Part shown: one piece after another, positions 34,308-39,584 of the stretch
Position numbering within the stretch: position 1 is the stretch's first letter
Layout of the letters: each line of letters begins with the position of its first letter
IMG/VR virus record: IMGVR_UViG_3300046716_000023
Coordinates: 1-54,756 of that record
Source: a virus
Taxonomy: Duplodnaviria; Caudoviricetes
DNA length: 54,756 nt
Reading direction: 5' to 3' (one strand)
The notes under the pieces: generated by a model
What the model saw: the letters and a program-made list of their open reading frames with translations, nothing else
What the model was told of the DNA's origin: nothing
The model's database searches: none
Made by a program: the position numbers and the translations under genes

Positions 34308-34594
34308 CGTAGCGAGCTCGTAGCGAGTTCGCTACGAGCCTCTCTACTACTACTACTCTACCCCGAAACACTCGCTACGTGATCGAACGAAGTTTCTGGG
34401 CGAGCTCGCTACGAGTTCGCTACGAGTTCGCTGCGTAACGTACCGTACACGGTACGAAGAAGTCAAGAGTGACTTTTCCCTCTCTCTCTATTAGAGACAA
34501 TTCTACTTATAAACTATGGGAAATAAAGGACAAGAAAACATATCTCTCTTCTTCTTTCTATCTTCCGGCGCGAACTCGCTACGAGCTCGCTACG
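34308..34594. repeat. cluster of TCGCTACG repeats (8 exact, 1 with one mismatch), tandem copies at 11-bp period
   Basis: Reverse at 34308 and 34319; forward at 34329, 34372, 34406, 34417, 34576, 34587; TCGCTGCG at 34428. Confidence 0.9.
34481..34555 (-). promoter_or_regulatory. probable leftward promoter, copy A of a duplicated element
   Basis: Shares TCTCTCTCTAT, TTCTACT and TGGGAAATAAAGGACA at identical spacing with 48439-48490; TAGAAT on the minus strand. Confidence 0.55.
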
Positions 34595-34639
34595 CGGAGC
34601 TCGGGCCTCAAACCTCTGAAATTTCCTATAAAATTTTGA

Positions 34640-36404: not shown

Positions 36405-36799
36405 TGTTCGTACACTTCCAGACCCATCACTGGGGTCTCGGATGCTGGACCAGCGGCTGGAGATGCGAGACTGAGGAAGAAGCGATGCGTCGCTTCGATC
36501 TCGTGACTCGACACCCGAGCGGCTGGTATCAGTACGACTGCTACGAGCTGAAGAAGTCCGGCAAGGACGACATCAGTCTCGCGGGTGAGATCTACGTGGT
36601 GAAGTGGTATCAGCGGAGACTGCCGCAGTACTGCACACCGCCCGAGAAGCTGTGGACCCACTTCGCAACCCACGTTCCGCGTGGAGCGAGGTGGAACAGG
36701 CACTACCGAGCGTGGGTGGACCACGACGGACACTACTACTGGCCGGTCAAGCTGACGATCGTCAGGCACTTGGCCTCAACGTGGAAGGAGCGTGAATGA
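36404..36799 (+). CDS. hypothetical protein, aromatic-rich
   Basis: TAATG coupling and AAGGAG RBS. Confidence 0.65.
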   Translation: MFVHFQTHHWGLGCWTSGWRCETEEEAMRRFDLVTRHPSGWYQYDCYELKKSGKDDISLAGEIYVVKWYQRRLPQYCTPPEKLWTHFATHVPRGARWNRHYRAWVDHDGHYYWPVKLTIVRHLASTWKERE

Positions 36800-37173
36800 G
36801 CATCAAGCACAGCTGGCCCGAGCGTCTCATCGAGACGATCGTGGACGGCAAGGTGGTCGAGAGCCACGTGGCTCCCGCAGAAGAGAAGTGGTCGAACTAC
36901 GATCTCGAATTCGTGGTCGACCAGACAAAGTGGGACGAGAACCGACAGGCGGACTCGGACACCGATGCTGACGAAGAGTTCGACTTCCCCACGACCGTCG
37001 AGGTCAAGGAAGACGGCTTCAATCAGCAGATCCCGTGGGGTGCGAGTGGCACTCAGATGGAGATCTACGAGAAGGTCGAGGACATGCTGAAGGAATGGCT
37101 GAACCTCGTCCTCAACAACGACTGCAAGGACCGCAAGGTGCGGTTCATCATCTCCGTCACTGAGGCGGAGTAG
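36796..37173 (+). CDS. acidic hypothetical protein
   Basis: ATGA coupling and AAGGAG RBS. Confidence 0.7.
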   Translation: MSIKHSWPERLIETIVDGKVVESHVAPAEEKWSNYDLEFVVDQTKWDENRQADSDTDADEEFDFPTTVEVKEDGFNQQIPWGASGTQMEIYEKVEDMLKEWLNLVLNNDCKDRKVRFIISVTEAE

Positions 37174-37185
37174 TCCCTTTCTCTC

Positions 37186-37214
37186 CGACCTGAGCATGTC
37201 AATAAACTGCTCAG
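37186..37214 (+). ncRNA. intergenic 29-nt repeat, copy 1 (predicted H-type pseudoknot)
   Basis: CGACCTGAGCATGTCAATAAACTGCTCAG. Confidence 0.65.
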
Positions 37215-37227
37215 AAAGACTCTAGCT

Positions 37228-37521
37228 ATGGGCGACACTCAGAAGAACACCGAGGGCAATCTCCCGGGCGTGATCGACACGCACGAGGTGACCCTTAAGA
37301 TCCGGGTCCCGAACAAGCCGAACATGACGGCGGACGGACTCACGGAGTTCCCCTGCACCGCGGTGTTGGTCTACTCGAACGGGACGCGCGTCGTGCTGCC
37401 GATCAGGCAGGCGAAGCCGTCCAAGGCGTCGGGCAAGCTCAACGCGTGGGGCGGTGGGAAGATGGCTCTCGAGGACAACACGCAGGTGATCGTCGGGATC
37501 AACCTGACGGTCATGGAGTAG
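37228..37521 (+). CDS. small beta-rich protein, paralog 1 of 38610-38963
   Basis: 64/80 identical residues over the shared C-terminal domain. Confidence 0.85.
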   Translation: MGDTQKNTEGNLPGVIDTHEVTLKIRVPNKPNMTADGLTEFPCTAVLVYSNGTRVVLPIRQAKPSKASGKLNAWGGGKMALEDNTQVIVGINLTVME

Positions 37522-37548
37522 TAGCTGCTCGCTCGGTTCTCAACTCTT

Positions 37549-37577
37549 CGACCTGGGCATGTCAATAAACTGCCCAA
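37549..37577 (+). ncRNA. intergenic repeat, copy 2
   Basis: CGACCTGGGCATGTCAATAAACTGCCCAA; compensatory A-U to G-C change relative to copy 1. Confidence 0.65.
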
Positions 37578-37587
37578 GGAGTTTCTC

Positions 37588-37791
37588 ATGTTGCAGATCA
37601 AGCTCGCCGCGAAGGTCATCAAAGCGTCCGACCCGTTCGCCAAGGGTCCGGAGTACGTCATCCTCGAGATCGCGTCGAGGGATCTCACGGCGGAAGAGGG
37701 AATGTTCCTCGAGACGATCTTCCCGAACACGAACAAGATCATCGAGCAGGCGCTGAACACCGAAGCGGTGATCAGCGCGATCCGTCAGTAG
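37588..37791 (+). CDS. hypothetical protein
   Basis: AAGGAG RBS directly after the repeat. Confidence 0.7.
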   Translation: MLQIKLAAKVIKASDPFAKGPEYVILEIASRDLTAEEGMFLETIFPNTNKIIEQALNTEAVISAIRQ

Positions 37792-37802
37792 TCTGAACCC
37801 TT

Positions 37803-37831
37803 CGACCTGGGCATGTCAATAAACTGCCCAG
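37803..37831 (+). ncRNA. intergenic repeat, copy 3
   Basis: CGACCTGGGCATGTCAATAAACTGCCCAG. Confidence 0.65.
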
Positions 37832-37841
37832 AAAGGTGCGC

Positions 37842-38147
37842 ATGCCGCACATCAAGGAGAAGAACGTCAACGCCGCCCAGAAGAAGGCGGACAAGTTGGA
37901 CGTGGACGAGCTGAAGAAGCTCACCATCGAGCAGGTCGCCGGACTGGCGCTGCAGGTCGACGCGACCGAGAAGGCTCTGAAGGAGCAGGCGCGGATCGTG
38001 AAGCAGCACGTGCACAAGGTCTACGGACCGCTGTGCGCGAAGAAGAAGGAGCTGGAGATCGAGTACGCCTTCCTCGTGGCCAAGCTCGAGAAGGTCAAGG
38101 AGATCAACCCGGCCATCGCCGCGATCTCCAAGCTCGCGGGTCTCTAG
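37842..38147 (+). CDS. basic coiled-coil hypothetical protein
   Basis: AAAGGT RBS after the repeat; strong codon bias. Confidence 0.7.
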   Translation: MPHIKEKNVNAAQKKADKLDVDELKKLTIEQVAGLALQVDATEKALKEQARIVKQHVHKVYGPLCAKKKELEIEYAFLVAKLEKVKEINPAIAAISKLAGL

Positions 38148-38154
38148 ACTTCTA

Positions 38155-38440
38155 GCGACATCCGGAGATAAACCGCAACAATGTGGTACGAAGCTCGCGC
38201 TCCGCCTAACATAGCGGAATAAGTCGCAACATCGCTCCCGCCTGGGTGGGGAGACTCTAATTATTAGACGTTAGGGGCAGCCCCGAACTTTGAGCCCCGG
38301 GGTATGGCGGGGAATGTGGCGCCGAACACTGCGGAGAGGCTATAGCCTTCGGGGTGCGATCCATGGCTTTGCCGCCTACACCACGATACGGCCGGGAGAT
38401 GTCGTATCGCCGGGTACTGCACACTCGGCCCAAGCCCTAA
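38155..38440 (+). ncRNA. putative structured non-coding RNA (~290 nt), family not recognised; strand inferred from context and G-U pairs
   Basis: No ORF; at least 8 complementary segment pairs, including nested long-range helices. Confidence 0.55.
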
Positions 38441-38441
38441 A

Positions 38442-38497
38442 ACAAAATTTTATTTTGTAGGCTCCTATTTGATTTTGAATGCTGTAGTATGTATGCT
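38442..38497 (+). promoter_or_regulatory. sigma70-type promoter with AT-rich upstream palindrome
   Basis: TTGATT (38469-74), 17-bp spacer, TATGCT (38492-97); ACAAAAT-ttt-ATTTTGT at 38442-58. Confidence 0.65.
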
Positions 38498-38609
38498 ATG
38501 TCGATGAGAGGTGCAGTCAGTAGGGCCGGCGCTGAGTATGTGCTCTGCCCACCCGACCGATGCAGCCCGACACGGCATGCACAGGAGCCGGTAGAACCGG
38601 TAGCGTATC

Positions 38610-38963
38610 ATGGGTGAAGTGAACAAGCAGTCCGAGGGCGCGGTCGGTGGCGGAAGCCCGGTGAAGGGACCCAACACGCCGTTCGCCACGAAGAAGGGGA
38701 ACGAGGTCGTGATCCCCGAGACCCACGAGGTGACCGTCAAGGCGCGCATCGCCAAGGCGCCGAACCTCTCGGTCGACGGGCTCACCGAGTTCCCCTGCGC
38801 CGCCATCCTCGTCTACGCCAACGGCACCCGCGTGGTGCTCCCCATCCGCCAGCCGAAGCCGTCGTCGGCCTCGGGCAAGATCAACGCGTGGGGCGGCGGC
38901 AAGATGGCGCTCGAGGACAACACGCAGGTGCAGGTGGGCATCAACCTCACCGTGATGGAGTAG
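38610..38963 (+). CDS. small beta-rich protein, paralog 2
   Basis: Paralog of 37228-37521; almost all third positions are G/C. Confidence 0.85.
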   Translation: MGEVNKQSEGAVGGGSPVKGPNTPFATKKGNEVVIPETHEVTVKARIAKAPNLSVDGLTEFPCAAILVYANGTRVVLPIRQPKPSSASGKINAWGGGKMALEDNTQVQVGINLTVME

Positions 38964-38990
38964 TCCTCCAAGCGACCCAGCAGTACACGA

Positions 38991-39023
38991 CCCACCCACC
39001 CGGCGGAAGCCGGGTGCGGTGGG
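38991..39023 (+). terminator. GNRA-capped hairpin without U-tract
   Basis: CCCACC-CACCCGGC-GGAA-GCCGGGTG-C-GGTGGG. Confidence 0.5.
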
Positions 39024-39091
39024 CTGTGCCATTTCCCGGCTAGCGGCCGGCCTACGGTGGCAGGTAGTCACCATCACGGAGGGTAGAACCC

Positions 39092-39343
39092 TTGGCCAAG
39101 AAGGACGAAGTCGACCCCGCTCTGAAGCGCTGGGTCACTGCACACATGCCAGACAAAGCTGGCCCTCCGCCCGAGAAGGCGGACACCTCGTACACCATCT
39201 ATGTCTCCAAGTCGGAGGCAGAGCGCATCGCGAAGTGCCAGCGTGAGTTCGGCACGACGCGTCAAGAGGTCCTCCGCCGACTCGTTCAAGCGGGTCTGAA
39301 GCAGCTCGGCATCGCCACTGGATGGTGGACCGATGGCGAGTAG
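39092..39343 (+). CDS. ribbon-helix-helix-like DNA-binding protein
   Basis: YTIYVSKSEAERIAKCQREFGTTRQEVLRRLV pattern; TTG start with GGAGG. Confidence 0.6.
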   Translation: MAKKDEVDPALKRWVTAHMPDKAGPPPEKADTSYTIYVSKSEAERIAKCQREFGTTRQEVLRRLVQAGLKQLGIATGWWTDGE

Positions 39344-39584
39344 AACCATCCACGTCCGTGCGTACGACCGGACCATGGGCACTGCGTACCCGAAGTGGAT
39401 CCTCATCAACATGCCGGGTCACGGACTCGGTCGAGCGCTGGTCGACATCCGTAAGGCTCGCTGGACCGATGACCTCGGGCAAGCGAAGCTGTACTTCCGG
39501 AACCGACTCAAGAGGTTCTGCAAGGAGCAGTATGGTGAGGACTGGGAAGACAACCCGAACCTCATCCTGCTGGCGGTGAGGTAG
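39333..39584 (+). CDS. hypothetical protein
   Basis: ORF chain. Confidence 0.6.
   Translation: MASRTIHVRAYDRTMGTAYPKWILINMPGHGLGRALVDIRKARWTDDLGQAKLYFRNRLKRFCKEQYGEDWEDNPNLILLAVR

What the first reader, a model, noticed from the sequence alone, without database searches (positions are those of the whole stretch)
37228..38963. Candidate system: duplicated small protein bracketing RNA elements
Seen: two paralogs with 64/80 identity over the shared domain, many synonymous differences and similar N-termini (MGDTQKNTEG, MGEVNKQSEG). Between them lie two pseudoknot repeats, two small genes and a ~290-nt structured segment. Copy 1 follows a pseudoknot. Copy 2 has its own sigma70-type promoter, a structured leader and extreme codon bias. 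Inference: both are under purifying selection, which is rare in a 55-kb phage. They could be an RNA-binding protein expressed at two stages, or a heteromer acting with the RNAs in host takeover or anti-defence. The link between proteins and RNAs is positional only.
Basis: partly seen in the sequence, partly recalled or inferred. Interest (0 to 1): 0.75.

Follow-up and report, generated by a model that had tools for sequence, protein, structure and literature searches.

The report
Small-protein paralogs flanking universal phage pseudoknots
Two old copies of an unknown small phage protein lie in a strongly codon-biased gene block whose genes are separated by a 27-base knotted RNA signal that also occurs in well over a hundred unrelated phages, so the RNA and the protein are probably not a dedicated pair.

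Summary
The features exist, but a dedicated protein-RNA system is not supported.

**Paralogs.** Copy 1 (37228-37521) and copy 2 (38610-38963) are real: 68 of 94 residues identical, dN/dS 0.16-0.25. The duplication is old. The family is an orphan, all-beta, with a confidently modelled intertwined homodimer.

- Copy 2's slot is present in all five relatives where it is visible. It has a conserved -10-like box, a structured leader and a terminator-like hairpin.
- Copy 1 is an optional cassette. One complete relative has a single copy.

**Pseudoknot.** The three repeats are a true H-type pseudoknot, and both stems covary.

- It occurs in at least 120 unrelated viral contigs (GC 25-58%) and in cultured phages of cyanobacteria, Firmicutes and Moraxella.
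- It is absent from Rfam.
- 0 of 10 unrelated pseudoknot-bearing records encode the protein.

**"Structured segment".** It has no folding-energy signal (z -0.22). It does hold a conserved micro-ORF (38181-38222, MWYEARAPPNIAE) with a RAPP/RGPP ribosome-arrest-type core in 7 of 7 relatives.

**Best reading.** This is a highly expressed early cassette array, punctuated by a universal cis-acting phage RNA element, next to an independently transcribed conserved gene.

The parts
36796..37173 (+). 125-aa gene upstream of pseudoknot 1. Its relatives are themselves pseudoknot-preceded cassettes in other phages.
   Evidence: No Pfam or PHROG family.
37187..37213 (+). Pseudoknot copy 1 (A:U variant of the covarying stem pair), 14 nt before the start of paralog copy 1.
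37228..37521 (+). Paralog copy 1, 97 aa, GC3 0.94. An optional cassette, absent from relatives L007 and G001.
37550..37576 (+). Pseudoknot copy 2 (G:C variant). AAGGAG follows the stem directly.
37588..37791 (+). 67-aa cassette gene with no known family, GC3 0.90. This slot holds other genes in relatives.
37804..37830 (+). Pseudoknot copy 3 (G:C variant), before the 103-aa gene.
37836..38147 (+). 103-aa coiled-coil-like gene. The ORF is listed from GTG 37836; the likely start is ATG 37842 (MPHIKEK). It is conserved and pseudoknot-preceded in all relatives seen. GC3 0.96.
38181..38222 (+). Micro-ORF MWYEARAPPNIAE with a RAPP core (RGPP in 5 relatives): a candidate ribosome-arrest leader peptide.
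   Evidence: conserved in 7 of 7, with synonymous changes and a shifted start in L009. Literature.
38223..38438 (+). Conserved non-coding blocks with a variable centre. Local hairpins show compensatory changes, but there is no folding-energy signal.
38439..38497 (+). This is the putative promoter of copy 2.
   Evidence: Not flagged by the consensus scan.
38498..38609 (+). Leader of copy 2. It has a long hairpin whose apical sequence differs between relatives, then CAGGAG, a small hairpin and the ATG.
38610..38963 (+). Paralog copy 2, 117 aa, GC3 0.96. It occupies the conserved slot of the family. Modelled as an intertwined beta homodimer.
38991..39036 (+). GC-rich terminator-like hairpin with a partial U tail after copy 2. 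The structure is kept with different inner sequences in 5 of 5 relatives.
39092..39343 (+). 83-aa gene with weak ribbon-helix-helix similarity, always directly downstream of the copy-2 slot.
   Evidence: RHH_1 E 0.026, below cut-off; phrog_876 E 0.0074.

Best explanation
This is not one protein-RNA machine. It is a strongly codon-biased block in the small-gene (presumably early) arm of a complete 54.8-kb tailed phage, built from three separable parts.

1. **Orphan small protein.** The protein probably works as an intertwined beta dimer.
   - Its conserved gene (copy 2) is a self-contained unit with a conserved -10-like box, a ~110-nt structured leader and a terminator-like hairpin.
   - Some lineages carry a second, old paralog (copy 1) as an extra cassette in the upstream operon. 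The same function can then be made from two transcripts, and mixed dimers are possible.
2. **Cassette linker.** The operon's cassettes are joined by a 27-nt H-type pseudoknot placed about 10 nt after one gene's stop and just before the next gene's ribosome site.
   - The element is shared by phages of very different hosts. It therefore most likely acts in cis on the messenger RNA, in coupling, processing or stability of the downstream cistron.
   - Its partner would be a universally conserved host machine, not the small protein.
3. **The supposed ncRNA.** This segment is a composite control region with a RAPP/RGPP arrest-type micro-ORF, conserved blocks, an AT-rich stretch and the copy-2 promoter and leader.

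**Shown:** paralogy, purifying selection, synteny, pseudoknot covariation, wide distribution of the pseudoknot without the protein, and coding conservation of the micro-ORF.

**Inferred:** high expression, two-transcript expression, the dimer, the pseudoknot's mode of action, and ribosome arrest.
For: **Genome and protein**

- The record is complete, with terminal repeats. It encodes tape measure, portal, terminase, DNA polymerase, primase, helicase and ligase.
- Paralogy. dN/dS is 0.16-0.25. In the tree, the window, L009 and P0007 copy-1 sequences form a clade at 98/97, and a second copy-1 lineage forms at 100/100.
- Synteny: the copy-2 slot is present in 5 of 5 loci where it is visible (window, L007, L008, L010, L011). 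Copy 1 occurs only in the window, L009, L011 and L013.
- The complete relative G001 has 1 copy, and G003 has 2. Run X2 holds both a copy-1-like and a copy-2-like contig.
- GC3 is 0.90-0.96 for the four block genes against 0.71-0.88 for ten long genes.
- The leader hairpins and the terminator-like hairpin are kept with changed sequence in 5 of 5 relatives.
- The dimer model scores 0.78 against 0.00 for the best of 3 controls. The three runs agree in at least 98% of contacts and partner pLDDT is 86. In calibration the mark was reached by 20 of 30 solved homomers and 1 of 23 single chains.

**Pseudoknot**

- Stem 2 pairs: GC 34, AU 14, GU 4, UA 4, CG 3, with 0 of 59 unpaired; and AU 44, GC 14, GU 1, with 0 of 59 unpaired.
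- Stem 1 pair: G:C 63, C:G 53, A:U 1, U:G 1, and 2 unpaired of 120.
GenBank phages give 68 records at E<=10, 38 of them covering at least 80%. All 4 of 4 inspected are intergenic.
- Context of 47 unrelated instances: 32 have a stop within 20 nt upstream, 24 have a start within 30 nt downstream, and 21 have an SD-like word within 16 nt.
- In 4 of 6 folded examples an upstream pyrimidine run pairs with the SD around the motif.
- The protein is absent from 0 of 10 pseudoknot-bearing records, and no ORF family is common to all.

**Micro-ORF**

- It is conserved in 7 of 7 loci with synonymous substitutions.
- RAPP and RGPP are the strongest arrest cores and are typical of small upstream ORFs, notably in Actinomycetota (PMC12992588; abstract and passages).
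Against: - No transcript data exist: no RNA run holds the stretch. Promoter, terminator, operon structure and expression level are therefore all inferred.
- The consensus promoter scan found nothing at 38470-38500.
- Every family member whose context I could see lies near pseudoknots, so co-occurrence within the family is complete. It is not independent, because all these loci are relatives. The contexts of 13 of the 21 homologs could not be fetched.
- Weak, non-significant fold hits to levivirus coat proteins recur. These are RNA-hairpin-binding beta dimers. The scores are E 0.05-0.5, TM 0.17-0.25 and Z 2.7-3.1. They do not exclude RNA binding.
- The micro-ORF has only five residues before the RAPP core. 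The paper states that the RAPP motif alone is insufficient and needs an N-terminal region.
- In 5 of 7 loci the SD of the micro-ORF is distant or weak.
- The strict conservation of the pseudoknot loop is not explained by a simple coupling or linker role.
Confidence: 0.55

Rival explanations
1. First reader's reading. The duplicated protein is an RNA-binding factor (homo- or heterodimer) that recognises the pseudoknot repeats and/or the conserved non-coding segment. Together they form a regulatory or anti-defence system, for example translational repression of the pseudoknot-preceded genes in the manner of the MS2 coat-operator pair.
For: - Copy 1 itself is preceded by a pseudoknot adjacent to its ribosome site.
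- All family loci seen carry 2-4 pseudoknots.
- The protein is modelled as an intertwined beta dimer.
- Weak hits to levivirus coat proteins recur in three fold searches.
Against: - The pseudoknot occurs without the protein in 10 of 10 unrelated records, 4 of them at least 90% complete. The same profile hit 5 of 5 relatives as a positive control.
- No ORF family is shared across all 5 complete pseudoknot-bearing genomes.
- The fold hits are far below significance: no Foldseek E<=0.001, and the best Z is 3.2.
- pI is 7.9-8.8, so the protein is not strongly basic.
- Copy 2, the conserved copy, has no pseudoknot in front of it.
Confidence: 0.08
2. The 27-nt element matters mainly at the DNA level. 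It would be a short homology patch or linker that promotes exchange of small gene cassettes, like the PeSL motifs of T4-type phages. Its RNA fold would be incidental.
For: - Cassette content between pseudoknots differs among relatives: 74/119/105 aa in L007, 97/79/100/103 aa in L009, 98/121/104 aa in L011 and 97/67/103 aa in the window.
- In run X2, a 6,283-nt contig replaces the window's 36407-37178 with 992 unlike nt just upstream of pseudoknot 1.
- Flanking genes in unrelated phages are 60 singletons.
Against: - Both helices covary with compensatory changes, and G:U pairs are tolerated. This is not expected for a pure homology patch.
- Most unrelated complete genomes carry only 1-2 copies, too few for intragenomic shuffling.
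- The element always lies on the coding strand, at a set distance after a stop and before an SD.
Confidence: 0.15
3. The conserved segment 38148-38460 is a stand-alone non-coding RNA (trans-acting or a decoy), and the micro-ORF is a by-product of RNA sequence conservation.
For: - Blocks of near-invariant sequence surround a variable centre.
- Local hairpins differ in sequence but keep pairing. GGGGC/GCCCC, GGAGG/CCTCC and GGGTCC/GGACCC can be read directly in the alignment.
- No long conserved ORF is present.
Against: - Folding z-scores are -0.22 and +0.22.
- The alifold covariation term is +4.72, and only 4 of 54 pairs show double changes.
- No Rfam hit is relevant. The one match, Ms_AS-1 at E 5.6 on the minus strand at 37215-37313, lies elsewhere.
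- The micro-ORF shows a codon-wise pattern: synonymous changes, RAPP/RGPP alternation and a start shifted in frame in L009.
Confidence: 0.15

Closest known systems
Start-associated sequences with extended inverted repeats (SAS/ESAS) of Cluster K mycobacteriophages (PMC3203893; passages read)
   Same: A short conserved repeat in one orientation, immediately upstream of the starts of several non-structural genes from different families. Function is unknown, and a role in translation initiation is suspected.
   Different: - The SAS core contains the SD itself and is confined to one phage cluster.
- Here the conserved core is a pseudoknot that precedes the SD. It occurs in phages with GC 25-61% and in hosts from several phyla, mostly at 1-2 copies per genome.
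PeSL (promoter-early stem-loop) cassettes of T4-type phages (PMC2839356 seen in a listing; PMC4122927 abstract read)
   Same: A repeated short motif with a stem-loop flanks small variable ORFs, and cassette content differs between close relatives at these motifs.
   Different: - A PeSL is a composite terminator/promoter.
- Here no sigma70-type promoter is found in the repeat, and most copies have no U tract.
- The fold is a pseudoknot with covarying stems.
Phage T4/T2 gene 32 leader pseudoknot (recalled from memory, not from a call)
   Same: A compact H-type pseudoknot in a phage mRNA upstream of a ribosome site, with a one-base first loop and a ~7-base A-rich last loop.
   Different: - The gene 32 pseudoknot nucleates binding of its own protein and occurs once, before gene 32.
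- This motif precedes unrelated genes in unrelated phages, and no cognate protein was found.
RAPP/RGPP ribosome-arrest peptides (ApdA, ApdP and the Streptomyces lividans set; PMC12992588 abstract and passages; PMC10951233 and PMC7897499 in the listing)
   Same: A small upstream ORF with Arg-Ala-Pro-Pro or Arg-Gly-Pro-Pro near its C-terminus. The two cores alternate among relatives.
   Different: - The micro-ORF is only 12-20 codons, with five to seven residues before the core and no signal or membrane segment.
- It is phage-encoded, and its regulated target is unclear.
- Arrest has not been tested.
MS2/Qbeta coat protein with its operator hairpin (recalled; the PDB rows name such coats)
   Same: A small beta-rich dimer, and a hairpin next to a ribosome site.
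   Different: - Fold similarity is not significant (TM at most 0.25, Z at most 3.1).
- The model has no C-terminal helices.
- The hairpin occurs without the protein in unrelated phages.

Membership tests
H-type RNA pseudoknot | Stem 2 (the hairpin stem) is kept by compensatory changes. | tested here: met
   the two variable pairs are never unpaired in 59 rows, with 5 and 3 pair types. 33 of the 59 rows came from a pattern that fixed one of these pairs, and 1 row is a CRISPR spacer; the inner pair is paired in 119 of 120.
H-type RNA pseudoknot | Stem 1 (5' tail with hairpin loop) is kept by compensatory changes. | tested here: met
   at a position the search pattern left free, G:C 63, C:G 53, A:U 1, U:G 1, and 2 unpaired of 120. 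The other two pairs of this stem were fixed by the pattern; phiCT19406B has CAC with GUG.
Any Rfam 15 family | A covariance-model match. | tested here: not met
   - gathering threshold on the whole window gave 0 matches.
- E<=10 on 37100-39150 gave one unrelated hit.
- 20 loci gave only tRNAs and one hammerhead.
- E<=5 on 6 loci gave nothing at the motif.
SAS/ESAS start-associated repeats | The conserved repeat contains the SD and lies 3-7 bp from the start. | tested here: not met
   The SD lies outside the conserved core, and the distance to the start ranges from 5 to more than 40 nt in unrelated phages.
PeSL promoter/terminator cassettes | The repeat carries a sigma70-type early promoter and a terminator stem-loop. 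| tested here: not met
   One search finds no promoter-like site at the repeats. The bases in the -35 position differ in every unrelated copy. A U tract follows only a few copies, such as L062 and L092.
PeSL promoter/terminator cassettes | The repeats flank variable small ORFs that differ between close relatives. | tested here: met
RAPP/RGPP arrest peptides | A RAPP or RGPP core near the C-terminus of a small ORF. | tested here: met
   RAPP in 2 loci and RGPP in 5 of 7. In 6 of 7 loci 3-5 residues follow the core; in L013 11 follow.
RAPP/RGPP arrest peptides | An adjacent N-terminal region supports arrest, and ribosome stalling has been demonstrated. | not testable with these tools
   Only five to seven residues precede the core. 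The paper says the motif alone is insufficient. Toeprinting is needed.
Levivirus-coat-like RNA hairpin binder | Shared fold. | tested here: inconclusive
   - best E 0.053, TM 0.17.
- Z 2.7-3.1 over 47-68 residues.
- E 0.19-0.5.
- The monomer model has pLDDT 74.7.
Levivirus-coat-like RNA hairpin binder | Protein and operator hairpin occur together. | tested here: not met
   0 of 10 hairpin-bearing unrelated records have the protein. One search serves as the positive control.
Pfam / PHROG / solved-structure families (for the protein) | A profile match. | tested here: not met
   - no family.
- best PDB profile hit has E 0.73.
- only 10 representatives at E<=0.001 among 1.84 billion.
- only unnamed viral clusters.

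The most novel reading that the evidence does not exclude
The 27-nt element ([G/C]ACCU-NN-GCA-N-GU[C/G]-NN-UAAAC-UGC-N'N') is a new and very widespread class of phage pseudoknot.

- It would engage a universally conserved host machine, such as the ribosome or RNase P, to set processing or translation of the next cistron. It would do this across phages of cyanobacteria, Firmicutes, Actinobacteria and Proteobacteria.
- In this phage lineage it punctuates an operon that ends in the first phage-encoded RAPP/RGPP ribosome-arrest leader.
- A bolder variant holds that the small beta dimer has captured this universal pseudoknot as its operator in this lineage.
Probability: 0.3. Interest if true: 0.85.

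Novelty: new variant of a known kind. Interest (0 to 1): 0.6.

Why it matters
- **Separating the parts.** A striking local arrangement was separated into parts that do not depend on each other. This prevents a false "system" call.
- **The pseudoknot.**
  - A 27-nt pseudoknot with strong covariation in both helices is missing from Rfam.
  - It is present in well over a hundred uncultured phage contigs and in cultured phages such as Microcystis phage Ma-LMM01, Lactobacillus prophage Lj965, Clostridium phage phiCT19406B and Moraxella phage Mcat1.
  - An element this conserved across hosts of 25-61% GC must touch something universal. It can be tested directly in laboratory phages.
- **The micro-ORF.** If the RAPP/RGPP micro-ORF stalls ribosomes, arrest-peptide control would extend to phages.
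- **The protein.** The family remains an orphan. Its predicted obligate dimer and two-copy state make it a tractable target for structure determination and pull-downs.

Tried and rejected
**Searches that gave nothing**
- Similarity of the 2.7-kb region and of copy 2 to GenBank phages gave no match.
- tRNA/tmRNA scan: none.
- Fold searches of the monomer model against PDB, a wide PDB set and BFVD gave nothing significant. Absence of a listed fold is not evidence that the fold is new. The model may be poor as a monomer if the protein is an intertwined dimer.
- The Atlas gave only unnamed viral clusters.
- A 16-mer from the non-coding segment, scanned to find more relatives, gave 22 stretches. 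Only 4 belong to the family.
- TerL comparison to name a host gave at most 35% identity, to phages of many phyla. The host is unknown.
- Sequencing runs: no RNA holder is listed. Laying contigs of 4 DNA runs shows no transcripts.
- Literature searches by sequence strings gave 1 irrelevant paper, and nothing relevant among the 15 listed of 536. "Not described" therefore rests only on these two searches plus Rfam.

**Ideas considered for the pseudoknot and dropped**
- A sigma70 promoter: there is no conserved -35.
- A sigma54 promoter: the spacing is wrong.
- An IHF site: the TCAA is not kept in cultured-phage variants.
- A CRISPR-repeat mimic.
- A stop-codon readthrough signal: the frame and spacing are inconsistent, with 2 of 3 window copies in frame by chance level.
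- A known ribozyme: no Rfam hit.
- All except the Rfam and promoter points rest on my own reading and recall, not on a dedicated test.

**Artefacts and failures**
- A cluster linking the 67-aa gene to the paralogs was an artefact of stop-to-stop ORFs that read through the repeat.
- The YN00 dN/dS estimate failed with a math error.
- Supplements of the papers were not opened.
Full report
**What the window is.** The 54,756-base window is a complete viral record with direct terminal repeats.
- It encodes a tape-measure protein, portal, large terminase, DNA polymerase, primase, helicases, ligase, thymidylate synthase and a ParB-like protein. No RNA polymerase was seen among the 20 long ORFs tested.
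- The finding lies in a run of small plus-strand genes between about 34.5 and 43 kb.
- The region has no counterpart in GenBank phages at DNA or protein level.
- The terminase is at most 35% identical to those of phages of many phyla, so the host is unknown.
- The best DNA holder is a soil metagenome run, which may be the source.

**The paralogs.** Copy 1 (37228-37521, 97 aa) and copy 2 (38610-38963, 117 aa) share 68 of 94 residues.
- Over the last 85 codons there are 42 identical codons, 22 synonymous and 21 non-synonymous differences. dN/dS is 0.25 (NG86) or 0.16 (LWL85); YN00 failed.
- The family is tiny. 21 proteins reach E<=0.01 among 5.8 billion clusters. 10 representatives reach E<=0.001 among 1.84 billion. 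Nearly all come from metagenomes.
- No Pfam, PHROG or PDB-sequence match exists.
- The monomer model is all-beta with pLDDT 74.7. It has no significant structural neighbour: no Foldseek E<=0.001, best VIA Z 3.2. Weak rows for levivirus coat proteins recur but are far below any threshold.
- A homodimer model of residues 30-117 scores 0.78, against 0.00 for the best of three controls. It has about 180 contacts, at least 98% agreement between runs and partner pLDDT 86. In calibration the mark was reached by 20 of 30 solved homomers and 1 of 23 single chains. The model supports dimerisation but does not show it.
- 40 of 52 interface residues are identical between the two copies, against 24 of 33 elsewhere. 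pI is 7.9-8.8. Mixed dimers are therefore plausible but untested.

**Which copy is the core gene.** Synteny in relatives shows a conserved order. It runs: 103-aa gene, 465-570-nt non-coding region, small protein, weak ribbon-helix-helix gene.
- This copy-2 slot is filled in all five loci where it can be seen (window, L007, L008, L010, L011).
- Copy 1, behind a pseudoknot, is present in the window, L009, L011 and L013. It is absent from L007, which has 8.6 kb of upstream sequence.
- The complete 54,248-nt relative G001 has one match. G003 has two.
- A relative in run X2 has a copy-1-like part on a 6,283-nt contig and a copy-2-like part on a 2,047-nt contig (about 95% identical over 37807-39376).
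- In the tree, the copy-1 sequences of the window, L009 and P0007 form a clade at 98/97. The L011/L013 copy-1 sequences with P0021 form another at 100/100. The extra copies are therefore old and retained, not recent.

**The repeats.** The three repeats are the only ones in the genome.
- *Hairpin stem.* They fold as a hairpin of 5-6 pairs with an 11-base loop.
  - A 27-mer pattern left an R and a Y free. All 35 of 35 distinct rows nevertheless had G with C or A with U.
  - On 59 distinct rows, the two variable stem pairs were never unpaired and showed 5 and 3 pair types, including G:U. 33 of these rows came from the narrower pattern, and one row is a CRISPR spacer.
Among 120 distinct instances in 115 loci that pair was G:C 63, C:G 53, A:U 1, U:G 1 and unpaired 2. 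Clostridium phage phiCT19406B shows CAC with GUG.
- The element is thus a compact H-type pseudoknot with a one-base first loop and an A-rich last loop.

**The pseudoknot is not specific to this phage family.**
- Exact-pattern scans found it in 13 viral stretches, 24 metagenome stretches and 73 with a relaxed core. Contigs range from 25 to 61% GC.
- Only one contig among 185,579 species genomes carries it, a candidate-phylum MAG contig.
- In GenBank phages a 30-mer found 68 records at E<=10, 38 of them covering at least 80%. These include nine Microcystis phage records at E 1e-4.
- The four I inspected are all intergenic. They are phiCT19406B, Lactobacillus prophage Lj965, Moraxella phage Mcat1 and Ma-LMM01.
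- Flanking genes of unrelated instances are 60 singletons.
- Of 47 unrelated instances, 37 have an ORF stop within 60 nt upstream (32 within 20 nt, median 10). 33 have an ORF start within 90 nt downstream (24 within 30 nt). 21 have an SD-like word within 16 nt of the stem.
- In 4 of 6 folded examples an upstream pyrimidine run pairs with the SD, with the motif at the tip.
- Complete unrelated genomes carry 0-2 pattern matches. G001 has three, of which two are the same element in the terminal repeat by my reading.
- Rfam has no such family. Two literature searches by sequence string found nothing relevant.

**Does the protein go with the pseudoknot?** It does not outside the family.
- The family profile found nothing in 10 unrelated pseudoknot-bearing viral records, 4 of them at least 90% complete. 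It found 5 of 5 relatives.
- An all-against-all comparison of ORFs of at least 40 aa from five complete pseudoknot-bearing genomes found no family in all five. The widest were two families present in three of the five.
- The conserved copy 2 has no pseudoknot in front of it.
- The positional link is best explained by the pseudoknot being the general linker of this operon's cassettes.

**The "structured segment".**
- Its folding energy is ordinary, and the alignment fold gives little covariation.
- It starts with a micro-ORF at 38181-38222, MWYEARAPPNIAE.
  - The ORF is conserved in 7 of 7 loci as MWY-x-x-R-[A/G]-P-P.
  - Ile, Arg, Gly, Pro and Ala codons carry synonymous changes.
  - In L009 the usual ATG is lost and the start is shifted in frame.
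  - L011 and L013 have a strong SD.
- RAPP and RGPP are reported as the most robust ribosome-arrest cores. They are depleted from proteomes and enriched near the C-termini of small upstream ORFs, with seven examples in Streptomyces lividans. The same paper says the motif needs an adjacent N-terminal region (PMC12992588; abstract and passages). I therefore call it a candidate arrest leader only.
- Conserved blocks follow, with local hairpins whose sequences differ but still pair (alignment).
- Next comes an AT-rich stretch and a TAG(T/G)AT box invariant in 7 of 7. The consensus promoter scan did not flag it.
- The leader then has hairpins of changed sequence, and a GC-rich terminator-like hairpin after copy 2 is kept in 5 of 5 relatives.

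**Codon bias.** GC3 is 0.94, 0.90, 0.96 and 0.96 for copy 1, the 67-aa gene, the 103-aa gene and copy 2. The neighbouring small genes give 0.76-0.86, and ten long genes give 0.71-0.88. The bias marks the whole block, not copy 2 alone.

**Verdict.**
- Supported parts of the interpretation: purifying selection and two expression contexts.
- Plausible: oligomers.
- Not supported: a protein-RNA system.
- The most likely mechanism, at about 0.55, has three parts.
  - An early, highly expressed cassette operon has cistrons joined by a universal cis-acting pseudoknot. Its action is unknown; it could be coupling, processing or stability.
  - The operon ends in a micro-ORF control region.
  - A self-contained gene for a dimeric orphan protein follows, and some lineages also carry an extra copy of that gene as a cassette.

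**Comparison with known systems.** See Closest known systems and Membership tests.
- The arrangement works like SAS/ESAS or PeSL linkers, but it fails the defining features of both.
- The pseudoknot belongs to no Rfam family.
Another (e1-5452245) describes comparable hairpin linkers between cassettes in gut phages.

Noticed in passing
L031:2082-2114 and L034:3941-3967 (metagenome contigs): The pseudoknot sequence, with six upstream bases, is a spacer in CRISPR arrays of 45 and 62 copies of a 32-nt repeat. Some host has therefore targeted this widely shared element.
   Followed up: partly
L038:1076-1172 (minus strand): A type III hammerhead ribozyme (49.8 bits, gathering score 48.5) lies 12 nt downstream of a pseudoknot copy in an unrelated 39% GC contig.
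   Followed up: no
L015:8945-9018, L039:19-92, L054 and L059 downstream of the motif: tRNA genes, or tRNA-like sequence, lie close downstream of pseudoknot copies in several unrelated contigs.
   Followed up: no
L052:196-271, L051:2441-3095, L015:8550-8625: Some unrelated contigs carry 2-3 pseudoknot copies close together, including copies with a changed loop such as GTCGCTAAAC and GGTTCGAAAAC.
   Followed up: no
window 34312-34596: Three copies of a 27-nt repeat (GCGAGCTCG.. / ..GTTCGCTACGAG) lie in the low-GC divergent gap between the structural arm and the small-gene arm. They could be operators or promoters.
   Followed up: no
window 37547-37575 and 37801-37829: In the probable source run, the assembler's contigs end and overlap exactly at pseudoknot copies 2 and 3, as expected for exact repeats.
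   Followed up: no
window 37171-37230 and 37519-37590: The stop of the upstream gene and the start of the next gene are in the same frame across pseudoknots 1 and 2, with no further stop except a doubled TAG after copy 1. They are not in frame across pseudoknot 3. I read this as chance.
   Followed up: partly
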